DNA of 64,000 nucleotides, taken from assembly GCA_022711395.1 (NCBI GenBank), contig JAKLFA010000002.1:323864-387863 (forward strand), read 5' to 3'. Numbering within the stretch: the first letter of the stretch is position 1; the number at the start of each line of letters is the position of its first letter. The DNA comes from Candidatus Omnitrophota bacterium. Lineage in GTDB: Bacteria > Omnitrophota > Gorgyraeia > Zapsychrales > JANLHA01. A program made the translations under genes and the position numbers. The notes beneath the pieces were generated by a model. The model was given only the letters and a program-made list of their open reading frames with translations. It searched no databases and was not told the origin of the DNA. Positions 16,315-36,284 of this stretch are shown piece by piece.

Positions 16315-16336
16315 GGTGTATCCTTTTGATTGTGTG

Positions 16337-20393: not shown

Positions 20394-20457
20394 ACACTCT
20401 CCTCTTTTGCTTGATTATATCAATTGCGGATGGGAAATCAAAAGCAAAAACATTTTT

Positions 20458-20862: not shown

Positions 20863-20929
20863 CATTTTTCGCACTATTCCTACGAAAAAGTATATCACAT
20901 GATAAGAGAAATTAACCACTTACGGAAGG

Positions 20930-21415: not shown

Positions 21416-21420
21416 AGTCG

Positions 21421-21969
21421 TTACTTTGCGAGGGTCGCTTTCCCTTTTTCATCGATCAGGATCTCCGTGATGATACGGCCTTCACGATCGAACTTCCGTT
21501 TGCGCCTTAAAAGGCCGTCTTTATACTCCAGTTGATAAAGCAGATGTCCATCGTCGTCAAACTGATCATAAACACCCTCCATCTCCGTAAAACGCACCGC
21601 CCGTTTGGAAGAACCTTCCGTGATGGTCTCTCCCTGCCCGTCCTGGCCCGTAAACGCTTTCTGATCATATTCTTTTTGCGCGATATCAAGTTCCCGCTGC
21701 CGAAAGATCATCTGTCGGGCCTGGAACAAGATCAATAAACCTGCCAGGCATCCGCCGCAAATGATCAGCGAGAAGCGCAGCGCGCGGCTGGCCCGCTGTT
21801 CCCTCGCCTTCAAGGCGTCATAGATGTGGATGACCAGGGCCTCTTCACTGATCCTTCCCGCGGAATAGATCTTGTCCAGGCGCATCCCAAGCGAGCTTGC
21901 CAGAAGTTCCAATTCCCGCAACCGGACCTTTTTATCAGGAAGATTCAGGATAAGGTCTAATTTTCTCAC
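21421..21969 (-). CDS. Membrane-anchored protein, unknown function
   Basis: Single central TM helix (…FSLIICGGCLAGLLILF…). Overlaps the start of the next gene. Confidence 0.4.
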   Translation of the reverse strand: MRKLDLILNLPDKKVRLRELELLASSLGMRLDKIYSAGRISEEALVIHIYDALKAREQRASRALRFSLIICGGCLAGLLILFQARQMIFRQRELDIAQKEYDQKAFTGQDGQGETITEGSSKRAVRFTEMEGVYDQFDDDGHLLYQLEYKDGLLRRKRKFDREGRIITEILIDEKGKATLAK

Positions 21970-22784: not shown

Positions 22785-22797
22785 GACAGAGTCTCAC

Positions 22798-24552
22798 CTA
22801 TGAGGCGTTCACGTCACGAAAAACAGCCCCGGTATCAGCGCTGGTCACCAGGGAAGCATAACGGGCAAGCCAGCCGCCTTTGACCTTGATCTTAAACGGC
22901 TCTAATTTTTTAAGGCGCTTGGCGATCTCTTTATCCGCCAGTTCCACATCCATCGTGCGCTTCTTGACATCGATGGCGATCATATCGCCGTTCTGAATGA
23001 TGGCCATCTCGCCGCCAGCCGCGGCTTCCGGAGCCACATGGCCGATGCACAGCCCCCTCGTCCCGCCGGAAAACCGCCCGTCCGTAATAAGGGCGGCCTT
23101 GATCCCGGCGCCCTTGAGCGCGGATGTGGGAGAAAGCATCTCCTGCATGCCGGGACCTCCTTTGGGACCTTCATAACGGATCACGACCACATCGCCATCC
23201 TTGACTTTTTTGTTCAGGATCGCGGCGAGGGCCTCTTCCTGCGATTCATAAACTTTGGCCGGCCCGCGGAACTTGAGCATGTCCTCATCCACACCGCTGG
23301 TCTTAAGGACCGCGCCGTTCCTGGCAAAATTACCGGTCAGGATCGTCAATCCACCTTCCTGAGAGAACGCCTTCTCCACGGTCCGGATCACGTCCCCGTC
23401 CGGGCCCGGGGACCTGTTGACATAATCCCCCAGCGTTCCGTAAACGGTCGGAGCATCCAGCTTCAAATACTTGTGCCCGTGGTCGGCGATCGGCTTCAAG
23501 ATCGCCCCCATTCCTCCCAACCGATGGACATCTTCGATGTGCACATCCGGGCGCGACGGCGCGATCTTGACGACGTTTGCCGTGGCGCGCGAGATCTTAT
23601 CGATACGGTTGATGTCATACTTCAGGCCCGCTTCACTGGCGAGCGCCAAAACGTGCAGGACGGTATTCGATGAGCCGCCCATGGCCATATCCAGCGTAAA
23701 AGCATTGTCGACCGCGTCCCGCGTGATGATATCCAAGGGCCGGACCTTCTCATTCATGAGCCTGATCAAAGTTCTCGCCGAATTGCGGACCAGCTCGATC
23801 CTGTCGGGATTCAGCGTATGCTGACGCTTCGCCCCTTCCACGCGGACCGTGGCCGGGGTTGAACCGTTGCCGGGAAGCGCCACTCCTAAAATTTCTGAAA
23901 GACAGTTCATGGAATTGGCCGTGAACATTCCCGAACAGCTGCCATACCCGGGACAGGCGACTTCCGTCAACTTCCTTAAATCTTCTTCGGACATTTTACC
24001 GACGGATTCTTTGCCTACGCCCTCAAAAACCGTGATCAGGTCCGTATTGTTCAACCCCGAAAGCATGGGTCCGCCGCTCACATAGATCGCCGGAATGTTG
24101 ATGCGGACCATGGCATTGAGCATCGCCGGCACGATCTTATCGCAGTTGCCGATGCCGATCCATGCGTCACAGGGATGCGCGCCGATGATCGTTTCGATCT
24201 GGTCCGCGATCAGCTCGCGCGACGCCAGCGAATATTTCATCCCGAAATGCCCCATCGCGATCCCGTCGCAGACAGCCCCGCCGATATTGGCATACCAGAC
24301 ATTGACGCCCAGCTTTTCGAGCTCCGCCTTGGCGATCGCCCCCAGCTGGTCCAGATGGGCGTGGCCGGGGATCTGGTTCGTGTAAGAATTGATGATCGTC
24401 ACGAACGGACGCTTTAAGTCGACCGCGTCCTTCAAAACGCCCTCCGCCATCATGAGCGAAACACATGGCAGCATATGGTTGCCGGAGCGGAACACCCCGC
24501 TTCCGTTTTTACGGACACTTTCGATCCCCTGATTAATAACTCGTTTTGACAT
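22798..24552 (-). CDS. ilvD: Dihydroxy-acid dehydratase
   Basis: MSKRVINQG… N-terminus, the …CDGIAMGH… cluster ligand region and the …[17 protein letters not shown]… C-terminal motif. ATG at 24552. Confidence 0.9.
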
Positions 24553-24682
24553 TTGATTCCTCTCTTCTCGTTTACAAATCTCAATACACAAATCACACCA
24601 ATAAACCTTGCCTTATCTTACACGAACCAAAAGAATCGTCAAAGTCCTAGTTGAAATTTCTGACGTCCTATGAAGGGTATTG

Positions 24683-25486
24683 CTAAAGATATTTGGAGAT
24701 CTGTTCCAAAAAGGATTGTTCATTGAACCGGTCAACATATTCGGTCGCGCCGGCCATCATCGCCTCCTGTGCGCAGCGCTCGATCACGGCCGCCCGTTTG
24801 CGGAATTCCGCAGACGCCAGATCGCTGACGCGGTAATAACTGTAGATCAGGATCGGTGTTTCTTCATGATGCGGGAACAGCCGGATCGCCTTGACCACGT
24901 CCTGCACTGAACGGCCATCCTCCAGCTGCGCTTCCAAAATGATCACATCGGGCTGAAAATTGACCACATGGACCAGGATATCCGCCGCGGTCTTGGCGTT
25001 CTGAACGTGGTATCCTTGCGAATTGAGCCCCTTGATGATGCTTTCACAGACCTCAGGATACGTCCCGAAAACCAGGAATTTCTGGGCCGCCTTCTTGAAA
25101 TGCCCGTGGCTGCCGTAATGGGCGAGCGTTTTATCGATCGTCGACAGCAGAACGTTCGGGGCGCTGGGCTTTTCTAAGAATCCGGCGACCCCTAAAGCGG
25201 CGAAAGCGTCCTCCATTTTTCCTCTGGCGGTCAGAACGATCACAGGGATCTCTTTTGTTTGAGGGTGCTCCCGAAGGGCCTTACAAAAGACGAATCCGTC
25301 CATTTCAGGCATGAGGACATCGGTCAAAATCAGATCAGGGTGGGCTTTTTTCAATAGATCAAGGGCTTCGGTCCCGTTGCCGGCCTGTAACACGATGTGC
25401 CCGGCGGTCTCAAGGTTCAAGGCAAGCATCTGCCGTTCGGCAGCTTCATCTTCAACAACCAGGATAATGGCCATTGTTCCCTCCAT
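24683..25486 (-). CDS. Response regulator with a receiver plus a second receiver-like domain (paralogue of the 21966-22784 gene)
   Basis: …ILVVEDEAAER…PDLILTDVLMPEMDGF…IPVIVLT…FLEKP…. Shares PDLILTDVLMPxMDGF and IPVIV segments with its paralogue. Confidence 0.75.
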   Translation of the reverse strand: MEGTMAIILVVEDEAAERQMLALNLETAGHIVLQAGNGTEALDLLKKAHPDLILTDVLMPEMDGFVFCKALREHPQTKEIPVIVLTARGKMEDAFAALGVAGFLEKPSAPNVLLSTIDKTLAHYGSHGHFKKAAQKFLVFGTYPEVCESIIKGLNSQGYHVQNAKTAADILVHVVNFQPDVIILEAQLEDGRSVQDVVKAIRLFPHHEETPILIYSYYRVSDLASAEFRKRAAVIERCAQEAMMAGATEYVDRFNEQSFLEQISKYL

Positions 25487-26895: not shown

Positions 26896-27609
26896 TCACG
26901 CGATCTTGATAGCTCGAACACAGCAGACGCAGTCTGTCCCCCGCGGGGTCTTGACCTTCTGCGCGTCATCTAAGGCTGTTTCCTGCCAGCAATTGTTCTC
27001 CTGCCCGGAAGGCAGAACATTTTTGAAAAAGCGCATGTCCTCGACCTTGAATTTCCGAAGGAGCCTGTCCAGCCTGGGCTTGTCATAGGTCCTTTGCTGA
27101 TCGTTGACATACGGCTGCCCGAACGGAACGGTGAGGACAAAGCGCCCCTTCGGTTTGAGGATCCGGTGGATCTCCAGCACTCCCTTTTCATCCGCTTCCA
27201 TCTCGCTTTGCGGGTCATGATAAAATCCCAGCCCCACATGTTCGATCATGGAGACGCACAATGCCGCGTCAAAAGAATGGTCGGAGAACGGAAGTTTCAA
27301 AATATCACCTTGTTGAAATTTGAAATTCGGAACGCGGTAGGGATATTCCCTGAAATCCAGCCCCGTGACCTGAAAGCCCAAACTCGCCATGAACAACGAC
27401 AGCATGCTTTCCATGCAGCCCAGATCAAGGATCGTCGAACCCTTCGCAAGATCACTGACCGCCTGGATCGCGTATGGGATCTCGATGATCCGCTCATTGA
27501 TCATGACCTTCTTCAATCTTGAGACTTTCCGGAAGCGCCTCCAGTCAAAGACCCGTTTATATTTTAAAAAAACAGGATTGTTCAAAAAATATGTTTCCGG
27601 CAGGTCCAT
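26896..27609 (-). CDS. Class I SAM-dependent methyltransferase (type 11-like)
   Basis: …ILDLGCMESMLSLFMASLGFQVTGLDF… (motif I) and …DAALCVSMIEHV… (motif II/post I). Start at MDLPETYF… avoids overlap with the upstream GT2 gene. Confidence 0.75.
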   Translation of the reverse strand: MDLPETYFLNNPVFLKYKRVFDWRRFRKVSRLKKVMINERIIEIPYAIQAVSDLAKGSTILDLGCMESMLSLFMASLGFQVTGLDFREYPYRVPNFKFQQGDILKLPFSDHSFDAALCVSMIEHVGLGFYHDPQSEMEADEKGVLEIHRILKPKGRFVLTVPFGQPYVNDQQRTYDKPRLDRLLRKFKVEDMRFFKNVLPSGQENNCWQETALDDAQKVKTPRGTDCVCCVRAIKIA

Positions 27610-27623
27610 TGAAATCCCTTTCT

Positions 27624-28448
27624 TTATCTTTTCCGGCATTCCCACGGGTCCGGCAATTTGTCCGCCGGGAGAATGTCCGGATTTTTCACGATATAACGTT
27701 CCGCGTATTTGCAAATGCGGATCACATCAAAGGCCCAGATCATCGCGGCATAGATCAGGCCGTGGATCCCGTCCTTATACCCCTGCTTTTTGATATACGA
27801 CTTCCAGAAATTCTTGAACGGTTTGGTGAACAAAAGCCAACGCAGTTTTTTTTCTGAAAGTTCACCATACTGATCAAAATAATCCTTTTGGTCAAACTCA
27901 CTGATAAAATTAAATTTTTGAGTGATCCAGTGGATGTTGGGATTGGGATAATGGAGCACTTCGCCTTTTAACTGGCCGATCTTGCCGTCAATGATCGGTC
28001 TTTCATGATAGGAGTCGCCTTCGAAGCGGACCTTGTCCCGACGGAACATTTTGAGCCCGTTCCCGCTCCATCCTCCGTGGCGAAGCGGTTTGTTCATAAA
28101 AAAATTTACCCGGGGAAGCTCAAAGGCGACGTATTCACTGCCATGTTCTAAAATGCTTAGAATTTCTTTCTTTAGCTCCGCAGAAATAAACTCATCAGGG
28201 TCAATGAAAAGCACCCAGTCGGCGATTGTCTGTTGAATAGCCCAGGCAGATCGTTTATTGTGGTTAGCTTCAAGCGGTTTGTGCAACAAAGTCCGCTTGT
28301 ATTTCCTCGTGACTTCCGCAGAATTATCCGTGCTCCCGGAATCCAGCATAATAATATCATCAGCCCAGGCATGGGCCTCCAAAAAAGCAGGCAGAGCCGC
28401 CTCTTCATTCAAAACGCTTCCGATCAACGCAAATATTTTTCTACTCAT
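27624..28448 (-). CDS. Family 2 glycosyltransferase
   Basis: …IFALIGSVLNEEAALPAFLEA…IIMLDSGSTDNS… and …FIDPDE… (DxD) are GT2 motifs. Confidence 0.75.
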   Translation of the reverse strand: MSRKIFALIGSVLNEEAALPAFLEAHAWADDIIMLDSGSTDNSAEVTRKYKRTLLHKPLEANHNKRSAWAIQQTIADWVLFIDPDEFISAELKKEILSILEHGSEYVAFELPRVNFFMNKPLRHGGWSGNGLKMFRRDKVRFEGDSYHERPIIDGKIGQLKGEVLHYPNPNIHWITQKFNFISEFDQKDYFDQYGELSEKKLRWLLFTKPFKNFWKSYIKKQGYKDGIHGLIYAAMIWAFDVIRICKYAERYIVKNPDILPADKLPDPWECRKR

Positions 28449-29466
28449 GCATCCTCGCATATTTTGCCCCTTCAATCATCTTACGAATGGCATCTTCTAA
28501 ACCGATGCCAACCTTCAAGTTCAGCTCTTTTTTTGCGCGTTCAATACAAGGCACATACTGTGCCACGCCCTGTTCTTTATATTCATTCGTGATCCTCACC
28601 GGCACATTAGATCCAGACAAACTTACCATAAGTTTTGCCAAATCAGCGATCTCTATCCGTTGGTCAGACCCGACATTATACGGCCTTAGAGAAATGCCGC
28701 TCTGCAAGATCTTAAAAAGCCATATGACCAGATCAGACATGTACAAATAGGACCGCGTCGTACGCCCATTCCCCTTAATGAGCACTTCCTTGCCGTCAAG
28801 AATATTCTGCAGAAAGTTTCCAGCCGCGTAATAACGTCCCAACGGCAAAAAAGGCCCGATAAACGCAAAACATCGTGCAATAGCAATCTCGAAACCGTGA
28901 GCCGACGCATATTCGCAACATAACCGCTCAGCGGACAGCTTCGCCCTTCCATACTCTGTATCCGGCTTCCCGTGATAACTCTCATCCACATGAAGAATAT
29001 TCTGCGGCTGTGTTCCATAAACAGCACCGGAACTTAAAAAAAGAACACGGGAAGGTTTTTTCGCGGCCGCGAATTTCAAAACACGCTCTGTTCCCTTTTC
29101 GATCACATCAGCCACTTCATGAACCTGCTCCGGGGTCCTCCCAGCGCCTGCATCCGCAGCGCCATGAATCATATAATCACAATGTTCTTCTGGCCATTCA
29201 AAGGACCGGATGTCACCCTTCAAAAACGACAACCATGATTCCCGGGCGAATGAAGGATTTGTCTTTAAAAAACGCTCTGGATCTCGCGATAAAACAATAA
29301 CCGATATTTTTACCCCTTCCTGGTTAATGATCCATCGAAAGGATTCCAGCATCCATTTCCCAAAGAATCCCGTACCTCCGGTCACAAAAATACGTTTCTT
29401 ATGAAAAAATGTACAGTCAACAGACTTTTGAATGTACTCAAGATCCTGCTGAATCAAATCAGGCAT
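28441..29466 (-). CDS. NAD-dependent sugar epimerase/dehydratase (extended SDR)
   Basis: …IFVTGGTGFFGKWM… Rossmann motif and the YxxxK catalytic dyad (…YGRAK…). Confidence 0.8.
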   Translation of the reverse strand: MPDLIQQDLEYIQKSVDCTFFHKKRIFVTGGTGFFGKWMLESFRWIINQEGVKISVIVLSRDPERFLKTNPSFARESWLSFLKGDIRSFEWPEEHCDYMIHGAADAGAGRTPEQVHEVADVIEKGTERVLKFAAAKKPSRVLFLSSGAVYGTQPQNILHVDESYHGKPDTEYGRAKLSAERLCCEYASAHGFEIAIARCFAFIGPFLPLGRYYAAGNFLQNILDGKEVLIKGNGRTTRSYLYMSDLVIWLFKILQSGISLRPYNVGSDQRIEIADLAKLMVSLSGSNVPVRITNEYKEQGVAQYVPCIERAKKELNLKVGIGLEDAIRKMIEGAKYARMHE

Positions 29467-31279
29467 CCTTACCTTCTTTTAAGGGCTCGACGATCATATT
29501 TTTAAAAAACTCTTCTCTTGATAAAAAAGGATACATGTCCTCAAGCGGTTTGGAAACCAAGGTTCCGTCATTCCTGCGGAATGATGCGACCGTAGGGATG
29601 ATCTCTTGATCTTCCAAACACATGAGCTCACAAATGACAGGACACTTTTCACTCAAGACCTGCAGCATGACAGATTCCAAATTCTTTGGGCTTTTCGCAG
29701 AATAATATTTTATGCCGTACGCCCTTGCGATCTTCTTAAGATCAGGAAATGAAATACCAGAGCTCTTATCGGTTCCCAACAATCGCCCATTGAAAAACTT
29801 CTTTTGAGTTGACCGGATCGAAAGATATCCGTTATTATTAAAAACAAATAATTTGATCGGAAGATCATACTGCACGATCGTCTGGAGCTCCTGCAAGTTC
29901 ATCTGAAAAGATCCATCGCCAGTAATACCGATGGTTTCTTTATTCTTATTCGCAAAACACACACCAATCGTCCCGGGAAGTGTATAGCCCATCTCACCCT
30001 GTGCCCCGGGCGCAATAAATCTTTGCCCTGACCTAAGCTTCAGGCCTTGGGCCGCAACATACGCCGCAGATCCTGCATCAGTCACGACCGTGGCGTTCCG
30101 CTTTAATTTCTTAGAAAGCAAATCAATAAAATAATACAGATTAATTCCCCCACTGGTTTTTGAATACTCCGGAAGGCACACCGGCCATTTAGACGCCCAT
30201 TCACGGCATTGTTGAATCCATGTCCCTGCATTTGGCCTTTGAATCTTTTGCTTGAGCATCTCAGCTAGAAAATTTAAAAGATGAGCATAAATAAAACGGT
30301 CTATCTTGACAGTCTTCTTTTTATGCTCTTCTCTGTCAATATCGACCACATAAACCTTGGCGCCACGAGCAAAATTCTGATATTCATGCCCCGTTGAACT
30401 GACGCTCAAACGACTGCCAAGCACAAGGACAAGATCAGCGTTCTGAAGAGCAAAATTTCCTGCCCGATCTCCTTTATTGCCGATACGTCCGATAAACAGA
30501 GGATGCCGGGCAGGAAGAAGATCGATCCCCAAATGTGTTACAACCACCGGCAATTGATTCAAATCGATAAATTGCCCAAATTCTCTGAGCGATCCGGAAA
30601 GACGAACGCCCTGGCCCGCGACTACGATTGGTCGAACGGAACGAGCCAAATCTTTGCAAAGACCACTGATATCATTTGGATCAACAACCGGATTTTCACA
30701 CAACTCCATCCGTTCCTCCTTACTAAAATGTCGTAAGGAATTTTCGGACAAATTGGCGCCTTGAACATCCAAAGGAATATCCAGCCAGACAGGACCTGGA
30801 CGTCCGGTCTTTGCGAGAAAAACAGCCTTTTCTAAATGATAGGCGATATCAGACGTATCATTAACCATGACCGCATATTTTGTAATTGGTGCTACCAACG
30901 ATAGAATATCAACCTCCTGAACACCGAATTGCCGAAGTTTCAACTCGGAATTGCGGATTGTCTCTTTTCGTTTAACCTGTCCGGAAATAAAAATACATGG
31001 CGTATTGTCCTGCCAGGCATCTAAAAGTCCAGTAATTGCGTTTGTGCCCCCGCATCCTGTGGTAACAATGACCGCCCCGAGGTTATTGGTATATTTGGCA
31101 TACGAAACAGCGGCCATCGCGCACGCTTGTTCATGATGATTGAAAACGGCCCTTAACTTTCGATGACAAGCCACCCCATCAGCCAAGAACATCATGCCTC
31201 CACCGGTCACCATAAACACATCACTTATCCCCTGGCGGTAAATAAAATCCGCAACATAATCAGCAACCCGTAACTTCAT
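29459..31279 (-). CDS. Thiamine-diphosphate-dependent enzyme of the acetolactate-synthase/YerE-like family (candidate two-carbon branch-forming enzyme acting on a sugar)
   Basis: N-terminal PYR domain (…VFMVTGGGMMFLADG…), central domain, and a C-terminal PP domain with the GDGSFQMN TPP-binding motif. Confidence 0.75.
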   Translation of the reverse strand: MKLRVADYVADFIYRQGISDVFMVTGGGMMFLADGVACHRKLRAVFNHHEQACAMAAVSYAKYTNNLGAVIVTTGCGGTNAITGLLDAWQDNTPCIFISGQVKRKETIRNSELKLRQFGVQEVDILSLVAPITKYAVMVNDTSDIAYHLEKAVFLAKTGRPGPVWLDIPLDVQGANLSENSLRHFSKEERMELCENPVVDPNDISGLCKDLARSVRPIVVAGQGVRLSGSLREFGQFIDLNQLPVVVTHLGIDLLPARHPLFIGRIGNKGDRAGNFALQNADLVLVLGSRLSVSSTGHEYQNFARGAKVYVVDIDREEHKKKTVKIDRFIYAHLLNFLAEMLKQKIQRPNAGTWIQQCREWASKWPVCLPEYSKTSGGINLYYFIDLLSKKLKRNATVVTDAGSAAYVAAQGLKLRSGQRFIAPGAQGEMGYTLPGTIGVCFANKNKETIGITGDGSFQMNLQELQTIVQYDLPIKLFVFNNNGYLSIRSTQKKFFNGRLLGTDKSSGISFPDLKKIARAYGIKYYSAKSPKNLESVMLQVLSEKCPVICELMCLEDQEIIPTVASFRRNDGTLVSKPLEDMYPFLSREEFFKNMIVEPLKEGKDA

Positions 31280-31294
31280 TTTTAAAATCCTTTA

Positions 31295-33025
31295 CTAGAC
31301 CAAAATGCTGTTATTGAAATATTTTTTATGCGAGGTCGGAGTAATGATCGAGAACGGAATCCCGAGGTCATTCAAAAAATCTGACACCCTCTTAAGCTCA
31401 ATATCCATATTCTCATAACGCAGAGAGGCAGCCGCTTTATCGTCCGGCACGTCTTTTTCATTATAAAAGTAAACTACCTTTCCCTGTTCCTCGCTTTCAT
31501 ACCCATCCATACCGACGGCCATAATCTCCTGCGCCCCCATCTGTAGAGCGGTCAGGATCGCGTTCACCCCGACATTCAAATATTTCACTTGCTGACGGAT
31601 GCCATCGATTGGAGAAGAATTCAGATCATCAATAGAATCGATCTGAACATACTCAACAGGCCCGCTATAGTTTTCCTGGACCAGACGTTTTCCAAAAAAG
31701 CTTGGAACAAGAAGAATGCTTTTTTTAGATACAGTCGCGGCATATTTTAAAAATCGTTTTTTGCTGACAAAAATATGGTAATCCGGCGCATAAACAGAAT
31801 TTAAAAAGTTACATCCAATCGTCACAAGCCCCAACCTCTTGATAAGCCCCTTAATTTTATCTTCATGTTTAACAATGGAAGGCCCATTGCCAATGATCAA
31901 AAATTTTTTTCCCTTGTGCCTGTCTTTCATTCCGAGCGAATCCAAGGAAAATGCATCTTTCGACGGAATAGCTTTCAATTCCTTTTCAATCGAGCGGATC
32001 GCTTCTTTGGCTTGAGAAGTGGTCGGGACATAGAACCTCTCTTCCAAAGCATTTTTAAGTTTCTCTCCGGAAAAGGAAATCGGACATTTTTCCTTCACGG
32101 TTTCAGCGATATTGCAAATCTCTTCAATTGTGTAATTATGGGAATTAAAAAGTTCATCAATGTAATAGGGATGAATATTACGGATCCCCCCCAAAAGCGA
32201 TCGTAGCGAGTAACCCCAAGGATCCTTTTCAAACAAGGGGAGAAAAAACCGCTCAATGACATCAAGATATGGAACGACGTTGTACTCTTTATCTCCGATT
32301 TTGCTTAAATAGCTTAGAAGTATCTCAATCGGAAGATTTCCAGCCCCCCGGCCCATGCCGTAAATTGACGCATCAACATAACTGGCCCCTTCAGTGATCG
32401 CGTGCAGAGTATTTGCGAATGCCATCTGAAGATTGTTGTGTGCATGAAATCCGATACGCTCGAAACCCAGCGCTTTTAACTGGCCAATCAATTCTGAAAT
32501 TTCAGCTGGAGCATAAGCGCCAAAACTGTCCGCAAAATAGACCGCCTTGAGTGCATTCTTTTGCTTCCAATTCTTTAATACCGCAAATTCCTGTTGCGAC
32601 CATTCCGAACTTGCCATAAGGTTCATAAACACTTCATAACCCGCTTCATGGAACTGCTCAGCCAGATCAACGGCGATCTTCACCTCAAATGGATACGCAG
32701 CCACTCGTACACCGGTAAATGGTGTCGGCTCTTTTGTTCGATCAGGAATCTTATAGCCGGAATATTTTCCTGCATCCAGCATAAAAAGCAATTTGCAATC
32801 GCTTGAAGACTTAAAAAGTCCATTAATATATTTCTCATCACAATATCCGAAAGGACCAAGCCCCTTTTTGCCTGGATCATTCTTGTAACCAATCTCGAAA
32901 TAATCAACCTGCCCTTTTTGAGCGGCAAAGTAGGAAGCCTTCACAAGATTATCCTCAAACTGCCACTTGTTCAGATGGCCACCGTCACGAATGGTACAAT
33001 CAATAATCTGTATTTTTGTCGTCAT
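31295..33025 (-). CDS. Fusion protein: N-terminal HMGL-like/DRE-TIM metallolyase (pyruvate-carboxyltransferase-type aldolase) domain plus a C-terminal Maf/DUF115 (MptE-like, motility-accessory-factor glycosyltransferase family) domain
   Basis: …IIDCTIRDGGH… and …GFHAHNNLQMAFANTL… (DRE-TIM). The C-terminal …KKFLIIGNGPSI…LVTIGCNF… resembles the DUF115/Maf Rossmann-like core. Confidence 0.55.
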   Translation of the reverse strand: MTTKIQIIDCTIRDGGHLNKWQFEDNLVKASYFAAQKGQVDYFEIGYKNDPGKKGLGPFGYCDEKYINGLFKSSSDCKLLFMLDAGKYSGYKIPDRTKEPTPFTGVRVAAYPFEVKIAVDLAEQFHEAGYEVFMNLMASSEWSQQEFAVLKNWKQKNALKAVYFADSFGAYAPAEISELIGQLKALGFERIGFHAHNNLQMAFANTLHAITEGASYVDASIYGMGRGAGNLPIEILLSYLSKIGDKEYNVVPYLDVIERFFLPLFEKDPWGYSLRSLLGGIRNIHPYYIDELFNSHNYTIEEICNIAETVKEKCPISFSGEKLKNALEERFYVPTTSQAKEAIRSIEKELKAIPSKDAFSLDSLGMKDRHKGKKFLIIGNGPSIVKHEDKIKGLIKRLGLVTIGCNFLNSVYAPDYHIFVSKKRFLKYAATVSKKSILLVPSFFGKRLVQENYSGPVEYVQIDSIDDLNSSPIDGIRQQVKYLNVGVNAILTALQMGAQEIMAVGMDGYESEEQGKVVYFYNEKDVPDDKAAASLRYENMDIELKRVSDFLNDLGIPFSIITPTSHKKYFNNSILV

Positions 33026-33027
33026 AT

Positions 33028-33783
33028 CTAAAGGATCCGTAATTCATGATAGCCATGAACTGTGTGTGGCGTTTCAGATTGCAAACTCTCAAAAGGAACC
33101 TGCCCCAACGCCACCGCGACACCAGCCTTAAGCTGAGCATTTTCCGCCATCTGGATATCCATGGAGGTATCACCAATCACAATGGTGGAACTTCTTTCAG
33201 CTTTCATCTGCTCCAAAGCAACAAGTGCAGGCTCTCCGCTTTCCTTAGGCAACGCTGTCGCCTCTTTTCCAAGAAGAAGATCAAAATATTTTGCAATCCC
33301 TAAAAAACTCATAATCTCTTCAGTATTTTTTATGCTGTCAGACGTAATAACCGCCATTTTGACACCCTTGCCACGGAGTTCTTTGAGAAACGCCTCAACA
33401 CCCGGAAGAATCGCGGTGTATTCATAGATCTCTCTGAGAAAGCCCGAGTGGACATCAACAAAAAGCTTCTCAATCTGTCCCTGTGAAACGGAAAAACCAT
33501 GCTCTGACAAAAAATCAATCAGAATCCCGATCACTTTTTCACGGCTGACTAAAGCGATGGGACCTTCCGGCAAAAGCCGTTTCGTCTCTAACGAGAACCC
33601 CATCACCCGGCAAAGTTTTTCATGGAAATCATGCTTCAGGTTGAACATGGAGATCAGCGCGTGGCTTCGCATTTCAATGATCCGGCCCCAATACAAATGG
33701 CTATCGATCAGCGTCCCGTCTTTATCAAAAAATACGGTCTCGATACCATCAATATCCCAATCAGAAGATGAAAGAGTGATCAT
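33028..33783 (-). CDS. HAD-superfamily phosphatase (subfamily IA)
   Basis: …VFFDKDGTLIDS… motif I, …ITSDS… and …VIGDTSMD… motifs. Confidence 0.75.
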   Translation of the reverse strand: MITLSSSDWDIDGIETVFFDKDGTLIDSHLYWGRIIEMRSHALISMFNLKHDFHEKLCRVMGFSLETKRLLPEGPIALVSREKVIGILIDFLSEHGFSVSQGQIEKLFVDVHSGFLREIYEYTAILPGVEAFLKELRGKGVKMAVITSDSIKNTEEIMSFLGIAKYFDLLLGKEATALPKESGEPALVALEQMKAERSSTIVIGDTSMDIQMAENAQLKAGVAVALGQVPFESLQSETPHTVHGYHELRIL

Positions 33784-34760
33784 AAATATTTTAGCGTTTT
33801 ATCGACCAATTGTTTAGCAATCCGAAGGGCGCCGTTAAAGGCCCTGTCGTTTTTTAAAAAATCATCCCGGCCAATATATGTTTTAATGATTTTCCGGGCA
33901 AACGATCCGATCGCAACCCCATGCGCCGTGATCTCAAACATTTTCGCCATTCGAGCCGTTTTGCTGTTGGTCCCTCCGGATGTCAGGACCCAAACAGGAA
34001 GCCTCGCTTTTTGCACAATATCTGCGGTTGCCAAAGCCTGTAATGTCGTATTGTAGCGGTCATCTCCACCGCTCATCGGAGCGCCATCGGCCTGAATAAT
34101 TGTTGAAAATTCCGGCCGGTCTGCAATAAAACGCTTGATGCGTGCAATGAGCTGTTTGTCCCCTAAATGTGACCGGTCAAGACAAAGGCTTAGGACGCCA
34201 TCAAAAACATCATTCATGATATTCCACTGGGCATAAGCGCCCTCTTCATCATCAGTGACAGCATGCAATTCAAGGGAACTTAATCCAAACTTGATCAATG
34301 GCGGAAGCAAAACCTTCAAGTCAACATTTTCTGTGACAAAAGTAACTGCTTTGGCTGCAGTACAAATTTTTTCACATGCCCCGCAACCAATACAGCGTTT
34401 CTTTACTACAACGTATTCGCCCGTCGTTTGGGCTATGGCCGTCTGCAAACACGCCTTGGCGCACAATCCGCATGCTTTACATTTTTCAGTAATGATCAAC
34501 GCTTTACGAACATGCGGATCGCCGGAAATCCCGACGCTCACATTCAAAAAATAATTCTTTCGCTTGTTCTTTGGAATGACCCTATCCAGACCCCGTTGAG
34601 CGGCCAATACCACATCCTCACGCGCTGAAAGATCAAAATAATTTGCCCCTGCCTTGGCATAAACGGCAACCAATTTTTCGACTTCCTGCGCGTCCTCATT
34701 ACCCGCGCCGCAAACCAGCTTAAAACACTGTTTCTTTTTTAGAATATCCGAAAGGCCCAT
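33780..34760 (-). CDS. Protein with an embedded 2x[4Fe-4S] ferredoxin-type motif inside a TIM-barrel-like scaffold; unknown function
   Basis: CKACGLCAKAC and CIGCGACEKIC (two CxxCxxCxxxC motifs). Flanking …LVCGAGNEDA… and …PVWVLTSGGT… segments. Confidence 0.45.
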   Translation of the reverse strand: MGLSDILKKKQCFKLVCGAGNEDAQEVEKLVAVYAKAGANYFDLSAREDVVLAAQRGLDRVIPKNKRKNYFLNVSVGISGDPHVRKALIITEKCKACGLCAKACLQTAIAQTTGEYVVVKKRCIGCGACEKICTAAKAVTFVTENVDLKVLLPPLIKFGLSSLELHAVTDDEEGAYAQWNIMNDVFDGVLSLCLDRSHLGDKQLIARIKRFIADRPEFSTIIQADGAPMSGGDDRYNTTLQALATADIVQKARLPVWVLTSGGTNSKTARMAKMFEITAHGVAIGSFARKIIKTYIGRDDFLKNDRAFNGALRIAKQLVDKTLKYL

Positions 34761-34913
34761 GCTTAAATAAGCTCCTCTTCACCCGTTCTTTTTCAAAATA
34801 AGACAAGCTATTATATCCAATCAAGATAAACGAGCAAACAAAAATACAATATAAAAAGGGCAACACCCTTTTGGGCATTGCCCTTTTCAGCTTAAAACAC
34901 ACTCAAGTTATAT

Positions 34914-35594
34914 TTACCACGCCGCGTTCACGATCGGAAGGACCGGAAGCATGTCTTTAGCTGTCGCGACATTGACCAGACCGATCTGGATGCCGTTGAG
35001 CTGTTCCGTCCAGTTCACCAGCCCAAAGGCGAATCCTTCGAACTTGGTGCTGTAATTGACCGCCCCAAGCTGAACACCTTTGGCTTCGGTGGCGATGTTG
35101 ATCCCGCCGAACTGAGCGCCTGCCGAGTTGCCGTTGATGTAATTGACAAAGCCGAAACTTCCGCCCATCACATCACCTTGAACGACCGAAACGAGCCCGA
35201 CCTGGGAGCCCTGCACATTACCCTCAGTATAAGCCACAAACCCCGCGCTGCCGCCCATCACGTTGCCTTGAACGACCGAAACAAGGCCTTCCTGCATTCC
35301 CTGGACGTTGCCTTCGGTATATCCAACAAAACCAAAATTCGCGCCCAGCACATCACCGGAAACCACATTGACAAGACCTAAGTCCATACCTGTGACGCCG
35401 GCATTTTTCCCATAAATAAAATTAAACCCAAACCCTTTAATGCCTTCCTCTTCCGGAACAAGCTGGATCGGATTGAACAACGCGATCTGAAGCGGTTTTG
35501 CCCCTTCAGCGGCGCTGGCCAATTGCCCGAAACCGGCTAATGACACCGCGATCACCGCTACCGCAACCAGACTTTTTAAGATCACACCCTTCAT
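34914..35594 (-). CDS. Secreted protein built of about 30-aa tandem repeats (GLV[NS]VV.G[DN]V.G..[FA]GFV.YTEGNVQG.Q), probably beta-helical
   Basis: Signal peptide MKGVILKSLVAVAVIAVSLAGFGQLASA and at least four degenerate repeats, visible at both protein and nucleotide level (35100-35380). Confidence 0.5.
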   Translation of the reverse strand: MKGVILKSLVAVAVIAVSLAGFGQLASAAEGAKPLQIALFNPIQLVPEEEGIKGFGFNFIYGKNAGVTGMDLGLVNVVSGDVLGANFGFVGYTEGNVQGMQEGLVSVVQGNVMGGSAGFVAYTEGNVQGSQVGLVSVVQGDVMGGSFGFVNYINGNSAGAQFGGINIATEAKGVQLGAVNYSTKFEGFAFGLVNWTEQLNGIQIGLVNVATAKDMLPVLPIVNAAW

Positions 35595-35852: not shown

Positions 35853-36284
35853 TTAAAATTGTTTAGTGTAATGCTGCGGATCGAACGCGCGTTTTTCCCG
35901 TTCGATCCAATACGTCGCAGCGCCGGGATCGATCTTTTGCGAAAGCAGGTCTTTCCCAAACAGCCGCATGATAAGCCCGATCGGCGCAAAGACCAGATAA
36001 AAACACAAGGCCAGCGTCAAGGTTGTCACGACCCACATCAGGGCCTTGAACGCCGTCTCCATCACCCAGCGCAGCGGGTAGACCCAGCGCGGTCGGATCA
36101 GGGCCATCACAAGGGCGTAGCATCCCGCCGGAGCAAAAAAATACACATGCCCCCAATGGCCGCGTGTGGCCTGCCAGATCGAGATCGCGATCGCCAGCGG
36201 CCCGAAGATCAGGCCGAATTTCTTAAGTTCAGTGTCAGTGACAGTGTTAGTGATAGTGTGAGTGTCAGTCTTAGAAAAAAACAT
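35853..36284 (-). CDS. SxtJ-like small membrane protein (carbamoyltransferase-associated). Its N-terminus is encoded by a hexamer repeat array.
   Basis: …KKFGLIFGPLAIAISIW… plus two further TM helices and conserved synteny with the carbamoyltransferase. The N-terminus MFFSKTDTHTITNTVTDTE derives from the (AGTGNN)n array. Confidence 0.5.
   Translation of the reverse strand: MFFSKTDTHTITNTVTDTELKKFGLIFGPLAIAISIWQATRGHWGHVYFFAPAGCYALVMALIRPRWVYPLRWVMETAFKALMWVVTTLTLALCFYLVFAPIGLIMRLFGKDLLSQKIDPGAATYWIEREKRAFDPQHYTKQF
36231..36269. repeat. Hexanucleotide tandem array (AGTGNN)x6.5; inverted partner of the 36678-36717 array
   Basis: agtgtc agtgac agtgtt agtgat agtgtg agtgtc agtc. Confidence 0.7.

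What the first reader, a model, noticed from the sequence alone, without database searches (positions are those of the whole stretch)
27620..34760. Apparently low-GC island encoding an unusual glycan-modification pathway
From the GT2 gene through the Fe-S protein the sequence looks conspicuously AT-richer than its flanks (by eye, mid-40s % GC or lower versus about 57%). That composition suggests horizontal acquisition. The gene content is a SAM methyltransferase, a GT2, an SDR epimerase/dehydratase, an acetolactate-synthase/YerE-like TPP enzyme, an aldolase-Maf fusion, a HAD phosphatase and a ferredoxin-motif protein. YerE-type TPP enzymes attach two-carbon branches to keto-sugars (yersiniose pathway). 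This gene content points to synthesis and transfer of a branched or otherwise rare sugar rather than a standard O-antigen.
Basis: partly seen in the sequence, partly recalled or inferred. Interest (0 to 1): 0.6.

Follow-up and report, generated by a model that had tools for sequence, protein, structure and literature searches.

The report
AT-rich operon for acyl-branched sugar
An AT-rich, tightly packed operon in an uncultured Omnitrophota bacterium most likely builds a rare sugar with a carbon side-branch, combining a known thiamine-enzyme/reductase pair with three conserved, widespread enzymes that nobody has characterised.

Summary
Bases 27620-34760 are 44.6% GC against 52.8% for the rest of the window (not 57%). 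The five genes from the SDR to the Fe-S protein are the only ORFs of 200 aa or more with GC3 below 0.5. The gene calls are also right.

The TPP enzyme is YerE-like, not an acetolactate synthase. Its best solved relative is JanthE (426 bits; AHAS 190-230), and it fails every curated AHAS cut-off. Its closest homologues (60-66%) lie in CDP-3,6-dideoxyhexose (RfbF/G/H) clusters. Relatives of the adjacent SDR sit beside such TPP enzymes in 9 of 12 loci, which suggests a YerE/YerF-like pair.

A DmpG-type pyruvate aldolase next to it matches the published erwiniose/caryophyllose scheme, so a branch longer than C2 is expected.

Two things are new. First, a conserved triad: an LdpA-like Fe-S TIM-barrel protein, a HAD phosphatase and an aldolase-MptE fusion. 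Homologues number in the thousands across many phyla, including a Clostridium botulinum flagellin glycosylation island. Second, this triad couples either to YerE-like enzymes or to KdsB-like CMP-transferases.

Caveats: the window has no RfbF/G/H, so the acceptor sugar is unknown. There are no mobility genes, so horizontal origin rests on composition and patchy distribution. I rate it a new variant of a known kind, of moderate interest.

The parts
34852..34889 (-). Terminator-like hairpin (17-bp stem plus T-run). It ends the preceding surface-repeat gene and marks the upstream edge of the island operon.
   Evidence: inverted repeat I20
33780..34760 (-). LdpA-like Fe-S enzyme (326 aa): a TIM barrel with an inserted 2x[4Fe-4S] ferredoxin domain (CxxCxxCxxxC at C94-C104 and C123-C133). 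Two further invariant Cys (C17, C193) and a phosphate-binding-like SGGTNS loop. First gene of the operon. Function unknown.
   Evidence: Pfam LdpA_C 49 bits, above the cut-off of 22. NCBIfam LdpA 125 bits, below the cut-off of 450. Model pLDDT 88.8. No close solved fold, TM about 0.45. Only the ferredoxin part matches PDB sequences. Invariant residues across 45 homologues. GC3 0.46.
33028..33783 (-). HAD-IA phosphatase (251 aa), with the DxDxT motif in FFDKDGT and GDxxxD in GDTSMD. Overlaps the Fe-S gene by 4 nt.
   Evidence: Pfam Hydrolase/HAD_2. Only sub-threshold hits to named phosphatases. Co-located with the fusion in 43 of 80 loci. GC3 0.48.
31295..33025 (-). Fusion protein (576 aa): an N-terminal DmpG/BphI-type class II pyruvate aldolase, a linker, and a C-terminal MptE-like (DUF115) nucleotide-binding domain.
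32225..33025 (-). Aldolase (DRE-TIM/HMGL-like) domain, residues 1-267. The RDGGH (R13 D14 H17) and HAH (H194 H196) motifs are invariant or nearly invariant in the family.
   Evidence: NCBIfam 4-hydroxy-2-oxovalerate aldolase models match 2-267. PDB 3dxi 170 bits, DmpG 1nvm 84 bits. Foldseek top hits are 3dxi, 4jn6 and 1nvm. Invariant columns.
31505..31924 (-). MptE-like/DUF115 domain core, residues 368-507 (GNGPS and GMDG motifs).
   Evidence: Pfam PF01973 E=6.8e-6, 26 bits, below the gathering score of 34.6. All 12 family members tested hit PF01973, best E 7.7e-10. Weak PDB match to archaeal MptE 8sd5 on the same motifs. pLDDT about 90.
29459..31279 (-). YerE-like thiamine-diphosphate carboligase (606 aa). 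Canonical GDG...NN ThDP motif and a JanthE-type C-terminal extension.
28441..29466 (-). Extended SDR of nucleotide-sugar type (341 aa): GxxGxxG, SSGAVYG and YGRAK. It lacks the Asp/Glu pair of 4,6-dehydratases and the Glu of UXS decarboxylases. Proposed YerF/ErwF-like ketoreductase.
   Evidence: Pfam Epimerase. Only weak PDB hits. Relatives at 38-46% identity lie next to a YerE-like TPP gene in 9 of 12 loci and near RfbF/G/H in 5.
27624..28475 (-). Small GT2 glycosyltransferase (274-283 aa, DPD motif; the public gene call starts at 28448). GC3 0.55, intermediate.
   Evidence: Pfam Glycos_transf_2; gene call
26896..27714 (-). Class I SAM methyltransferase (247-272 aa; the public gene call starts at 27639 and overlaps GT2 by 16 nt). 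Host-like GC3 of 0.63. Last gene of the operon.
   Evidence: Pfam Methyltransf_11. 55% identical homologue at the end of the related Omnitrophota cluster L050.

Best explanation
The region is a seven-gene minus-strand operon (Fe-S, HAD, aldolase-MptE, ThDP enzyme, SDR, GT2, methyltransferase) for making and transferring a C-acyl-branched sugar. It follows the published 'unifying scheme' for erwiniose- and caryophyllose-type sugars.

Proposed steps:
1. The Fe-S TIM-barrel enzyme and the HAD phosphatase turn a phosphorylated metabolite into an aldehyde. This is inferred only from conserved linkage, a phosphate-binding-type loop and the phosphatase.
2. The DmpG-type aldolase domain condenses that aldehyde with pyruvate to give a 4-hydroxy-2-oxo acid (a 3-deoxy-2-ulosonic acid). 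This is inferred from homology and intact catalytic motifs.
3. The YerE-like ThDP enzyme decarboxylates this 2-oxo acid and adds the acyl-anion equivalent to the keto group of an NDP-4-keto-(deoxy)hexose, creating a tertiary-alcohol branch. This is inferred from family membership and from the context of its closest homologues.
4. The SDR reduces the side-chain carbonyl, the role played by YerF/ErwF.
5. The GT2 transfers the sugar, and the methyltransferase methylates the sugar or glycan.

The role of the MptE-like domain is unknown. It may bind a nucleotide, act as a kinase or diphosphokinase, or act as a transferase.

The acceptor pathway (RfbF/RfbG/RfbH in relatives) is not in the window and must be supplied from elsewhere in the genome.

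The AT-rich five-gene core probably entered, or was replaced in, this 52-53% GC genome by recombination with a lower-GC relative. The closest cassettes lie in loci of 39-44% GC.
For: Operon structure: overlaps or gaps of at most 15 nt, and a terminator hairpin immediately upstream.

ThDP enzyme: JanthE 425.6 bits aligned end-to-end, including the C-terminal extension, against AHAS at 190-228 bits. It is below every AHAS cut-off. Three of three sampled closest homologues (62-64% identity) sit with a glucose-1-P cytidylyltransferase-type gene, a 4,6-dehydratase-type SDR and an RfbH-sized DegT gene. In L088 and in C. botulinum L086, RfbF and RfbH pass NCBIfam cut-offs (RfbF 317 and 409 against 300; RfbH 717 against 423), and RfbG passes in L086 (498 against 278).

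SDR: its family neighbours a YerE-like TPP gene in 9 of 12 metagenomic loci and RfbF/G/H in 5.

Aldolase plus ThDP enzyme plus reductase plus GT (plus SAM methyltransferase) is the published architecture. ErwE uses 4-hydroxy-2-oxopentanoate made by a BphI-like aldolase and rejects pyruvate (PMC9306805; PMC12247030).

The aldolase catalytic motifs are invariant.

The order Fe-S, HAD, fusion, [HpcH], TPP, SDR, preceded by NTP-transferase, SDR and DegT genes, recurs in Omnitrophota, CPR, Melainabacteria, Elusimicrobia and Clostridium.

In a second clade the same triad is followed by a KdsB-like CMP-transferase (225 bits against a cut-off of 193). This fits a 3-deoxy-2-ulosonic acid product.

Composition. 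Relatives' loci are 39-44% GC, and the best relative L088 is about 68% identical at the nucleotide level.
Against: No RfbF/G/H, other nucleotidyltransferase or 4,6-dehydratase was found in the 64-kb window, nor in 10 kb beyond one edge. The acceptor is therefore unknown and the pathway may be incomplete.

No enzyme of the triad has a characterised homologue. The Fe-S protein has no close solved fold.

The SDR is only 27-28% identical to the SDRs that follow TPP in triad-containing cassettes. No YerF or ErwF sequence was available for comparison.

The window's GT2 and SDR have no close homologue in the best related cassette, L088.

There are no mobility genes, tRNA or flanking repeats. In relatives the cassette GC is on average equal to its flanks.

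JanthE's physiological substrate is itself unknown (PMC12188165).
Confidence: 0.55

Rival explanations
1. The operon makes a free or differently activated 3-deoxy-2-ulosonic (Kdo-like) acid or another small acyloin or polyol, not a branch on a nucleotide sugar. The ThDP enzyme and SDR process the keto acid itself, for example by decarboxylation or ligation to a small carbonyl followed by reduction.
For: There are no nucleotide-sugar genes in the window. The triad occurs without any TPP enzyme in most loci: TPP is present in 18 of 80. In clade B the triad is followed by a KdsB-like CMP-transferase. YerE-like enzymes are promiscuous toward non-sugar ketones in vitro (PMC12247030).
Against: No CMP-transferase is present here. 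The TPP and SDR families are each repeatedly embedded in RfbF/G/H clusters. A GT2 follows directly in the same operon.
Confidence: 0.15
2. The island is a decaying or orphan fragment of a larger branched-sugar cluster that lost its rfbF/G/H, MBL and HpcH genes. It no longer makes a product.
For: Compared with its best relatives (L088, L050) the window lacks RfbF, RfbG, the MBL-fold gene, RfbH and further GTs. The island sits among unrelated genes rather than in a polysaccharide locus.
Against: All seven ORFs are intact and translationally coupled, with catalytic motifs preserved. An identical fusion protein and the same gene order occur on contigs from four other metagenome samples. That argues for maintenance in a population.
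Confidence: 0.12
3. The low GC does not reflect horizontal transfer. It is a native glycan locus whose AT-richness reflects function or selection, such as low expression or diversifying recombination, as is common for surface-polysaccharide genes.
For: There is no integrase, tRNA or direct repeats. The closest relatives are also Omnitrophota or PVC-type MAGs. In L088 the same core genes also dip below their flanks, with GC3 0.32-0.47 against 0.5-0.57.
Against: There is a GC3 gap of about 20 points confined to five contiguous genes with sharp edges. The distribution across phyla is very patchy, including Clostridium and archaea. The content is mosaic: TPP, SDR and GT2 are not orthologous to those of the otherwise closest cassette L050.
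Confidence: 0.2
4. The TPP protein is a genuine acetohydroxy-acid synthase working with the nearby IlvD in branched-chain amino-acid synthesis.
For: There are strong but sub-threshold matches to AHAS models (E 1e-109). An ILVD_EDD-family dehydratase lies 4.3 kb away at 22798-24591.
Against: It is below every curated AHAS cut-off and closer to JanthE by about 200 bits. No small regulatory subunit or ilvC is adjacent: its neighbours are the aldolase fusion and a sugar-type SDR. IlvD has host GC3 (0.71) and is separated from the operon by methyltransferase and response-regulator genes.
Confidence: 0.02

Closest known systems
Erwiniose gene cluster of Pectobacterium atrosepticum (ErwE/ErwF/ErwI/ErwJ; Steitz et al. 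2022, PMC9306805)
   Same: A BphI/DmpG-type pyruvate aldolase sits next to a YerE-like ThDP carboligase, an NAD(P)H reductase and a glycosyltransferase. The donor is an aldolase-made 4-hydroxy-2-oxo acid rather than pyruvate.
   Different: No ErwJ-type acylating acetaldehyde dehydrogenase is present. Here the aldolase is fused to an MptE-like domain and preceded by an Fe-S TIM-barrel enzyme and a HAD phosphatase. The ddh/rfb genes for CDP-4-keto-3,6-dideoxyglucose are absent locally. No sequence comparison with the Erw proteins was possible.
Yersiniose A pathway (YerE/YerF, Yersinia pseudotuberculosis)
   Same: A ThDP-dependent C-4 branching of a nucleotide keto-sugar, followed by reduction of the branch carbonyl.
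   Different: YerE uses pyruvate and gives a C2 branch, and no aldolase is involved. The aldolase linkage here predicts a longer, hydroxylated branch.
Caryophyllose (MMAR_2331-2333) and R. palustris 'ropiose' clusters
   Same: The set is aldolase, ThDP enzyme, reductase and GT, plus a SAM methyltransferase in R. palustris. Many relatives of this island additionally carry an HpcH/citrate-lyase-type aldolase like MMAR_2331.
   Different: The window itself has no HpcH-type aldolase. The Fe-S, HAD and MptE parts are not described for those clusters.
JanthE (PDB 8rph/8rpi/8rpj), YerE-like ThDP enzyme of Janthinobacterium
   Same: It is the closest solved relative: 425.6 bits, aligned over residues 2-596 including the C-terminal tail.
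   Different: JanthE has a CDG ThDP motif whereas the window protein has canonical GDG. JanthE's natural substrates and pathway are unknown.
LdpA (cyanobacterial circadian redox-sensing Fe-S protein) / Pfam LdpA_C, DUF561
   Same: Same domain family: a barrel with two [4Fe-4S] motifs.
   Different: It scores far below the LdpA equivalog cut-off (125 against 450). Here it is the first gene of a sugar operon and is linked to an aldolase in 49 of 80 loci. No enzymatic activity is known for any member.
MptE (archaeal 6-hydroxymethyl-dihydropterin diphosphokinase) and Maf flagellin nonulosonic-acid transferases (Pfam PF01973/DUF115)
   Same: It shares the PF01973 fold signature (GxGPS and GMD motifs).
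   Different: It is fused to an aldolase. There is no pterin, flagellin or CMP-nonulosonate context in the window. Which of the family's activities applies, if any, is unknown.
Acetohydroxy-acid synthase large subunit (IlvB/IlvG/IlvI)
   Same: Same ThDP superfamily and three-domain architecture.
   Different: It fails all curated cut-offs, has no regulatory subunit and sits in a sugar-cluster context.

Membership tests
YerE-like ThDP carboligases (sugar C-branching lyases) | Three-domain ThDP enzyme with a ThDP-binding GDG...NN motif and catalytic Glu | tested here: met
   Pfam TPP_enzyme_N/M/C. HHEQ and GDGSFQMNLQELQ...NNNGY are visible in the translation.
YerE-like ThDP carboligases (sugar C-branching lyases) | Closer to characterised YerE-like enzymes than to AHAS | tested here: met
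   JanthE 425.6 bits; 5ahk 281.5 bits; A. thaliana AHAS 228; E. coli AHAS I 220; yeast 193. 5ahk is deposited as 'acetolactate synthase II'. I recall it as PpYerE, but this is unverified.
YerE-like ThDP carboligases (sugar C-branching lyases) | Encoded with genes for an NDP-4-keto-deoxyhexose acceptor | tested here: inconclusive
   Met for its closest homologues (L088-L090) and for triad-containing cassettes. Not met in the window itself.
YerE-like ThDP carboligases (sugar C-branching lyases) | Catalyses aldehyde/keto-acid to ketone carboligation on a keto-sugar | not testable with these tools
   Needs an enzyme assay.
Acetohydroxy-acid synthase (biosynthetic) | Scores above curated family cut-offs | tested here: not met
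   TIGR00118 364.6 against 538.35. All PRK AHAS models score 255-335 against cut-offs of 738-1084.
Acetohydroxy-acid synthase (biosynthetic) | Adjacent small regulatory subunit and ilv operon context | tested here: not met
   The neighbours are the aldolase-MptE fusion and an SDR. IlvD is 4.3 kb away in a different transcription context.
Acyl-branched-sugar gene clusters ('unifying scheme', PMC9306805) | Co-located pyruvate aldolase, YerE-like ThDP enzyme, NAD(P)H reductase and glycosyltransferase | tested here: met
   Genes at 31295-33025, 29459-31279, 28441-29466 and 27624-28475 form one operon.
Acyl-branched-sugar gene clusters ('unifying scheme', PMC9306805) | Genes for CDP-4-keto-3,6-dideoxy-D-glucose in the cluster | tested here: not met
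   No RfbF/G/H homologue in 64 kb. They are present in relatives.
DmpG/BphI-type class II pyruvate aldolase (DRE-TIM, Pfam HMGL-like) | TIM barrel with RDGxH and HxH metal/pyruvate-binding motifs | tested here: met
   R13, D14, H194 and H196 are invariant and H17 is at least 90% conserved in 19 sequences. Fold matches 3dxi, 1nvm and 4jn6.
DmpG/BphI-type class II pyruvate aldolase (DRE-TIM, Pfam HMGL-like) | Equivalog-level score and a partner acylating aldehyde dehydrogenase (DmpF/BphJ) | tested here: not met
   NF006049 122.5 against 229; TIGR03217 108 against 286. No DmpF-like gene is present; an MptE-like domain is fused instead.
MptE-like / DUF115 (PF01973) | Match to the family profile over most of its length | tested here: inconclusive
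   The window copy scores 26-29 bits, below the gathering score of 34.6. However, 12 of 12 family members match positions about 20-165 of 171, best E 7.7e-10. There is a weak motif-level match to MptE 8sd5.
Maf-type flagellin glycosyltransferase system | Flagellin target and CMP-nonulosonate synthesis genes nearby | tested here: not met
   Neither is in the window. A homologous cassette does lie between two flagellin genes in C. botulinum.
LdpA family | LdpA_C domain plus two 4Fe-4S motifs | tested here: met
   PF12617 49.4 bits against 22.2. Eight ferredoxin Cys are invariant.
LdpA family | Equivalog of the circadian clock protein LdpA | tested here: not met
   NF045992 125.5 against a cut-off of 450.
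Horizontally acquired genomic island | Compositional deviation with sharp boundaries | tested here: met
Horizontally acquired genomic island | Mobility hallmarks (tRNA, integrase, flanking direct repeats) | tested here: not met
   No tRNA. No convincing flanking repeats. No integrase among the ORFs.
Horizontally acquired genomic island | Phylogenetically patchy distribution and mosaic content | tested here: met
   Cassettes occur in Omnitrophota, Planctomycetota, CPR, Melainabacteria, Elusimicrobia, Clostridium and archaea. TPP, SDR and GT2 are swapped relative to the closest cassettes. No gene trees were built.

The most novel reading that the evidence does not exclude
The conserved triad (LdpA-like Fe-S TIM-barrel enzyme, HAD phosphatase, DmpG-type aldolase fused to an MptE-like domain) is a previously unrecognised, very widespread module. 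Each of the two proteins searched has more than 3,400 homologues, mostly in uncultured phyla, plus a Clostridium botulinum flagellin glycosylation island. The N-terminal domain of a Bacteroides vulgatus homologue has been solved (3dxi). On this reading the triad makes a hydroxylated 3-deoxy-2-oxo (ulosonic) acid by a pyruvate-aldolase route rather than the PEP-dependent KdsA/NeuB route. The product is then either CMP-activated by KdsB-like enzymes or grafted as a long side chain onto CDP-keto-sugars by YerE-like enzymes. This would give the first enzymatic function for the LdpA protein family.
Probability: 0.3. Interest if true: 0.7.

Novelty: new variant of a known kind. Interest (0 to 1): 0.5.

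Why it matters
C-branched sugars with long side chains (erwiniose, caryophyllose, aurantose) are rare, immunologically important envelope components. Their biosynthetic logic was proposed only in 2022. This island extends that logic to the candidate phylum Omnitrophota and many other uncultured lineages.

It also shows that the ThDP/reductase pair is often served by a conserved, uncharacterised donor-supply module that includes a redox-active Fe-S barrel enzyme. The same module feeds KdsB-like CMP-transferases elsewhere and sits in a C. botulinum flagellin glycosylation island. That makes it experimentally tractable in cultured organisms.

Working out the triad would assign functions to thousands of 'hypothetical' or mis-named proteins ('4-hydroxy-2-oxovalerate aldolase', 'ferredoxin', 'acetolactate synthase'). 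It might also shed light on the LdpA family. For the scan itself, this is a correctly read low-GC glycan island rather than a new kind of system.

Tried and rejected
1. AHAS/branched-chain amino-acid reading: rejected on curated cut-offs, PDB ranking and context.
2. SDR as a 4,6-dehydratase or UXS-type decarboxylase that would make the keto-sugar acceptor locally: rejected from the sequence. It has SSGAVYG instead of TDE or TSE. The comparison motifs are from my own knowledge. PDB hits are weak.
3. Maf-type flagellin sialylation-like system: no flagellin or CMP-sugar genes in the window.
4. Fe-S protein as a mere electron carrier, or as the missing E3 (RfbI) partner of RfbH: unlikely. It has about 40 invariant non-ferredoxin residues, and it tracks the aldolase, not RfbH, across loci.
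6. A profile search of the MptE-like domain against PDB sequences gave only E=0.62 to MptE.
7. Mobility signatures were looked for and not found: no tRNA, no flanking repeats.
8. Rfb genes beyond the window. 10 kb past the right edge has none. The look-up for the left edge failed because the ORF start did not match a recorded gene.
9. Literature. There are no papers on the aldolase-MptE fusion or on LdpA-like proteins in glycan clusters. The in-silico survey of more than 200 YerE-like clusters (Krug et al. 2024) is not held, so I cannot exclude that it already lists such cassettes.
10. No phylogenetic trees were built.

Full report
OBSERVATION. The window is 51.9% GC overall. Bases 27620-34760 are 44.6% GC, the remainder is 52.8%, and the 10-kb flanks are 52.0% and 52.2%. 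In 1-kb sliding windows GC stays at or below 0.477 from 27001 to 35000, with a minimum of 0.423 at 31501-32500. The lowest of all 7141-bp windows starts at 27801.

Third-position GC is clearer still. The SDR, TPP, aldolase-fusion, HAD and Fe-S genes have GC3 of 0.44-0.48. They are the only ORFs of 200 aa or more in the whole window below 0.55; all the others are 0.55-0.79. GT2 is intermediate at 0.55. The methyltransferase is host-like at 0.63. So the AT-rich island is real, covers five or six genes, and has sharp edges.

ANATOMY. All the genes lie on the minus strand in this order: Fe-S (33780-34760), HAD (33028-33783), aldolase-MptE fusion (31295-33025), TPP enzyme (29459-31279), SDR (28441-29466), GT2 (27624-28475) and methyltransferase (26896-27714). 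Junctions are 4-16-nt overlaps or gaps of at most 15 nt. A 17-bp-stem terminator-like hairpin at 34889-34852 ends the preceding gene just upstream of the Fe-S start.

The source is a 516-kb contig of a Candidatus Omnitrophota MAG from JGI metagenome 3300010429. An identical fusion protein with the same gene order occurs on contigs from four other metagenome samples.

The rest of the window is unrelated housekeeping and signalling genes. Immediately upstream is a small set of glycan-related genes: GDSL/AlgX-like, carbamoyltransferase, SxtJ-like and DUF5989 genes, then a LA_2272-type surface-repeat protein. No tRNA, integrase or flanking direct repeats mark the island.

THE TPP ENZYME IS YerE-LIKE. 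It matches AHAS models strongly but stays below every curated cut-off, for example TIGR00118 at 364.6 against 538. Against all PDB sequences the best hit is 8rph at 425.6 bits, aligned over residues 2-596 including a C-terminal tail that AHAS lacks. 8rph is JanthE, a YerE-like ketone-accepting ThDP lyase (PMC12188165, PMC12247030). Next is 5ahk at 281.5 bits, then plant, E. coli and yeast AHAS at 190-228 bits.

Its closest database homologues (60-66% identity; Omnitrophota, Brocadiia, Armatimonadota, Euryarchaeota) are far closer than any AHAS. In three of three sampled contexts they sit with an NTP-transferase gene, a 4,6-dehydratase-type SDR and a DegT gene of about 440 aa. In L088 and in a Clostridium botulinum locus these pass NCBIfam cut-offs. 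Glucose-1-phosphate cytidylyltransferase scores 317 and 409 against 300. RfbH scores 717 against 423. In C. botulinum, CDP-glucose 4,6-dehydratase scores 498 against 278. These genes make CDP-4-keto-3,6-dideoxyglucose, the acceptor of YerE.

An ILVD_EDD-family dehydratase lies 4.3 kb away, but it has host GC3 (0.71) and is not in the operon. No AHAS small subunit is present.

THE SDR IS THE TPP ENZYME'S PARTNER. The 341-aa SDR has the GxxGxxG, SSGAVYG and YGRAK motifs. By comparison with motifs I know from the families, it lacks the Asp/Glu of 4,6-dehydratases and the Glu of UXS-type decarboxylases (read from the sequence). It is therefore a reductase or epimerase type. PDB hits are all weak.

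A metagenome scan found 12 loci with 38-46% identical relatives. Nine of them have a YerE-like TPP gene beside the SDR, and five also have RfbF/RfbG/RfbH. This co-occurrence supports a YerE/YerF-like pair of branching enzyme and branch ketoreductase. No YerF or ErwF sequence was available for a direct test.

THE ALDOLASE LINK MATCHES A PUBLISHED SCHEME. Steitz et al. 2022 (PMC9306805) showed that longer-branched sugars (erwiniose, caryophyllose, 'gastriose') are made in three steps. A pyruvate aldolase first builds a 4-hydroxy-2-oxo acid. A YerE-like enzyme then decarboxylates it and ligates it to CDP-4-keto-3,6-dideoxyglucose. Finally an NAD(P)H reductase reduces the product. ErwE refuses pyruvate itself. 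The aldolase is BphI-like (ErwI) in one cluster and HpcH/citrate-lyase-like (MMAR_2331) in another. The R. palustris cluster also has a SAM methyltransferase.

The N-terminal 267 residues of the fusion protein are a DmpG/BphI-type class II aldolase. They give 170 bits to 3dxi and 84 bits to DmpG 1nvm, with matching folds. The RDGGH and HxH motifs are conserved across the family. The island thus has the published set of aldolase, ThDP enzyme, reductase, GT and methyltransferase. This predicts a hydroxylated branch longer than the C2 of yersiniose.

WHAT IS NOT IN THE PUBLISHED SCHEME. The fusion protein has more than 3,400 homologues of the same length of about 575 aa, named only 'hypothetical' or '4-hydroxy-2-oxovalerate aldolase'. 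A scan of one genome per species found at least 580 loci, and I analysed 80 of them. The Fe-S protein accompanies the fusion in 49 of the 80, the HAD in 43, and a TPP enzyme in 18.

Two architectures recur:
- Clade A is 44-73% identical to the window fusion and occurs in Omnitrophota, CPR, Melainabacteria, Elusimicrobia and Planctomycetota-labelled MAGs. Its order is NTP-transferase, SDR, DegT, Fe-S, HAD, fusion, [HpcH aldolase], TPP, SDR.
- Clade B is 30-37% identical. Its order is [B12-radical SAM], [HpcH], fusion, Fe-S, HAD, [HpcH], cytidylyltransferase, DUF354-like, GT2, with no TPP enzyme. The cytidylyltransferase is KdsB-like (225 bits against a cut-off of 193). Neighbours belong to Leptospira O-antigen families TIGR04326 and TIGR04331.

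Some Melainabacteria and a Brachyspira carry just the Fe-S protein plus a stand-alone aldolase. In C. botulinum the clade-A cassette, without the HAD, lies between two flagellin genes together with GT2 genes. That is a flagellin glycosylation island. A 2026 survey of Clostridium flagellin islands does not mention aldolase, thiamine or acetolactate. It notes CDP-paratose genes in a C. butyricum island. Whether that island carries this cassette was not checked.

A simple unifying inference is that the triad makes a 3-deoxy-2-oxo (ulosonic-type) acid, which is either CMP-activated (clade B) or used as a ThDP donor (clade A and this window).

THE UNCHARACTERISED PARTS. The Fe-S protein models confidently (pLDDT 88.8, pTM 0.85) as a TIM barrel with a 2x[4Fe-4S] ferredoxin domain inserted after the third strand. 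Only the ferredoxin part matches PDB sequences. The barrel has no close solved relative: TM is about 0.45, and class II ketose-phosphate aldolases head a generic TIM-barrel list.

Across 45 homologues from both clades about 40 non-ferredoxin residues are invariant. They include K14, C17, N21, E22, D43, D81, H83, E164, H166, C193, QADGxPM and an SGGTNS loop that resembles a phosphate-binding loop; D195 and R196 are conserved in 44 of the 45. It therefore looks like an enzyme acting on a phosphorylated substrate, not a simple electron carrier. It is an LdpA_C-domain protein, but far below the LdpA equivalog cut-off.

The C-terminal domain of the fusion (pLDDT about 90) hits Pfam MptE-like/DUF115 in 12 of 12 family members, with best E of 7.7e-10. 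The window copy scores 26-29 bits, below the gathering score of 34.6. A profile search finds only a weak motif-level match to archaeal MptE. Its role could be as a kinase or diphosphokinase, a Maf-like transferase, or a nucleotide-binding partner replacing DmpF. This is open.

WHAT IS MISSING HERE. tBLASTn with every ORF of three complete relatives found only the five core genes and the methyltransferase in the 64-kb window. There is no RfbF/G/H, no HpcH and no MBL-fold gene. The 10 kb beyond the right edge has no sugar genes.

The best overall relative is L088, with amino-acid identities of 73% (Fe-S), 66% (HAD), 70% (fusion) and 64% (TPP), and about 68% nucleotide identity. It carries the full RfbF, RfbG, MBL, Fe-S, HAD, fusion, TPP, SDR, RfbH, GT set. 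The window's SDR and GT2 have no close counterpart there. Against the other close Omnitrophota cassette (L050), TPP is only 48% and SDR 28% identical, although Fe-S, HAD and fusion are 65-74% identical. L050 does share a 55% identical methyltransferase at the end of its cluster.

The locus is therefore a mosaic, reduced version of a larger cluster. The acceptor sugar must come from elsewhere in the genome or differ from the canonical one.

ORIGIN. Three things favour acquisition or replacement by recombination with a lower-GC relative. First, there is a GC3 gap of about 20 points confined to five contiguous genes. Second, the closest cassettes lie in loci of 39-44% GC. Third, the distribution is extremely patchy and the content is modular.

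Several points count against a classical island. There are no mobility genes or att-like repeats. The closest relatives belong to the same broad lineage. Across 24 relatives the cassette GC equals its flanks on average. In L088 the same genes are also AT-richer than their neighbours, as is common for surface-glycan genes. I regard horizontal origin as likely but not shown.

VERDICT. It is best filed as a new variant of the known acyl-branched-sugar pathway: a YerE/YerF-type pair fed by an aldolase. Three things distinguish it: an uncharacterised, very widespread Fe-S/HAD/aldolase-MptE donor module; its occurrence in Omnitrophota; and the local absence of acceptor-sugar genes.

Confidence in the overall mechanism is about 0.55. 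The steps assigned to the Fe-S, HAD and MptE parts are inference only. Interest is moderate (0.5). The more novel reading is that the triad is a general aldolase route to ulosonic-type acids and gives the first enzymatic role for LdpA-like proteins. I put that at about 0.3.

Noticed in passing
window 36231-36717: A low-GC3 (0.42) gene for a 23S-rRNA-intervening-sequence/bAvd-like four-helix-bundle protein (36285-36716, minus strand) is bracketed by 39-nt inverted repeats at 36231-36269 and 36679-36717. The repeats are built of 6-nt units (AGTGTC AGTGAC AGTGTT ...), are 87% complementary and lie 409 nt apart. The gene splits a carbamoyltransferase / SxtJ-like / DUF5989 gene trio and looks like an inserted cassette.
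   Followed up: no
window 34914-35594 (minus strand): Directly upstream of the island is a secreted protein with a signal peptide and Gly/Val-rich repeats. It matches Leptospira LA_2272/VC2662 surface-repeat families (NCBIfam) and has no Pfam hit. It is a conceivable glycosylation target, but there is no evidence for that.
   Followed up: no
window 35853-39780 (minus strand): A host-GC module lies next to the island: a GDSL/AlgX-like SGNH protein, a NodU/CmcH-type carbamoyltransferase, a SxtJ-like membrane protein and DUF5989. It suggests O-carbamoylation or acylation of a glycan. A GH18 gene and a DJ-1/PfpI gene follow on the other strand.
   Followed up: partly
loci L026, L027, L029, L030, L034, L045, L047, L055 (fusion gene at about 10001 in most): A second, TPP-less cassette: aldolase-MptE, Fe-S, HAD, HpcH aldolase, KdsB-like CMP-transferase, a DUF354/TIGR04326-like protein and GT2. 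It often also has B12-radical-SAM genes, a second PseF-like cytidylyltransferase and a LIC12162-family transferase. It looks like an undescribed CMP-ulosonic-acid pathway, present in Omnitrophota, Planctomycetota (Scalindua), Deltaproteobacteria-labelled MAGs and archaea.
   Followed up: partly
L086 1-20978 and L087 (Clostridium botulinum read assemblies): The clade-A cassette lies between two flagellin genes with GT2, TPR and methyltransferase genes. Its order is RfbF, SDR, Fe-S, aldolase-MptE, HpcH, YerE-like TPP, RfbG, RfbH. This predicts a C-branched 3,6-dideoxyhexose on flagellin in a culturable organism. I found no paper describing it.
   Followed up: partly
L088 5751-6491; L089 7086-7826; L090 8224-8973; cluster c23 in L050, L006, L010: An MBL-fold (RNase Z / PhnP-like) hydrolase gene is conserved between the RfbG-type dehydratase and the Fe-S or TPP genes in many relatives. 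It is absent from the window. Its role in the sugar pathway is unknown.
   Followed up: no
window 21966-25486 (minus strand): An ILVD_EDD-family dehydratase (22798-24591) is flanked by two paralogous 267-272-aa proteins that each carry a receiver (Response_reg) domain (24683-25486 and 21966-22784). This is an odd arrangement for ilvD, and the dehydratase could be a sugar-acid dehydratase instead.
   Followed up: no
window 7500-9000, 14000-15500, 20000-21500: Three further short GC dips (0.44-0.47 in 1-kb windows). The first lies near a 1004-aa SdrD_B-domain protein gene, the second at the 5' end of a trypsin/PDZ (HtrA-like) protease gene, and the third over small membrane-protein ORFs.
   Followed up: no
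window 59745-63707 (minus strand): A 1320-aa ORF with host-like GC3 (0.71) has no Pfam match at E<=1e-5. ORFs of 529, 461 and 293 aa at 13315-18804 are also without hits.
   Followed up: no
PDB 3dxi (Bacteroides vulgatus BVU_2661): The only solved relative of the fusion protein is a structural-genomics entry titled 'N-terminal domain of a putative aldolase'. This implies that a cultured gut Bacteroides carries a full-length homologue that could be studied genetically.
   Followed up: no
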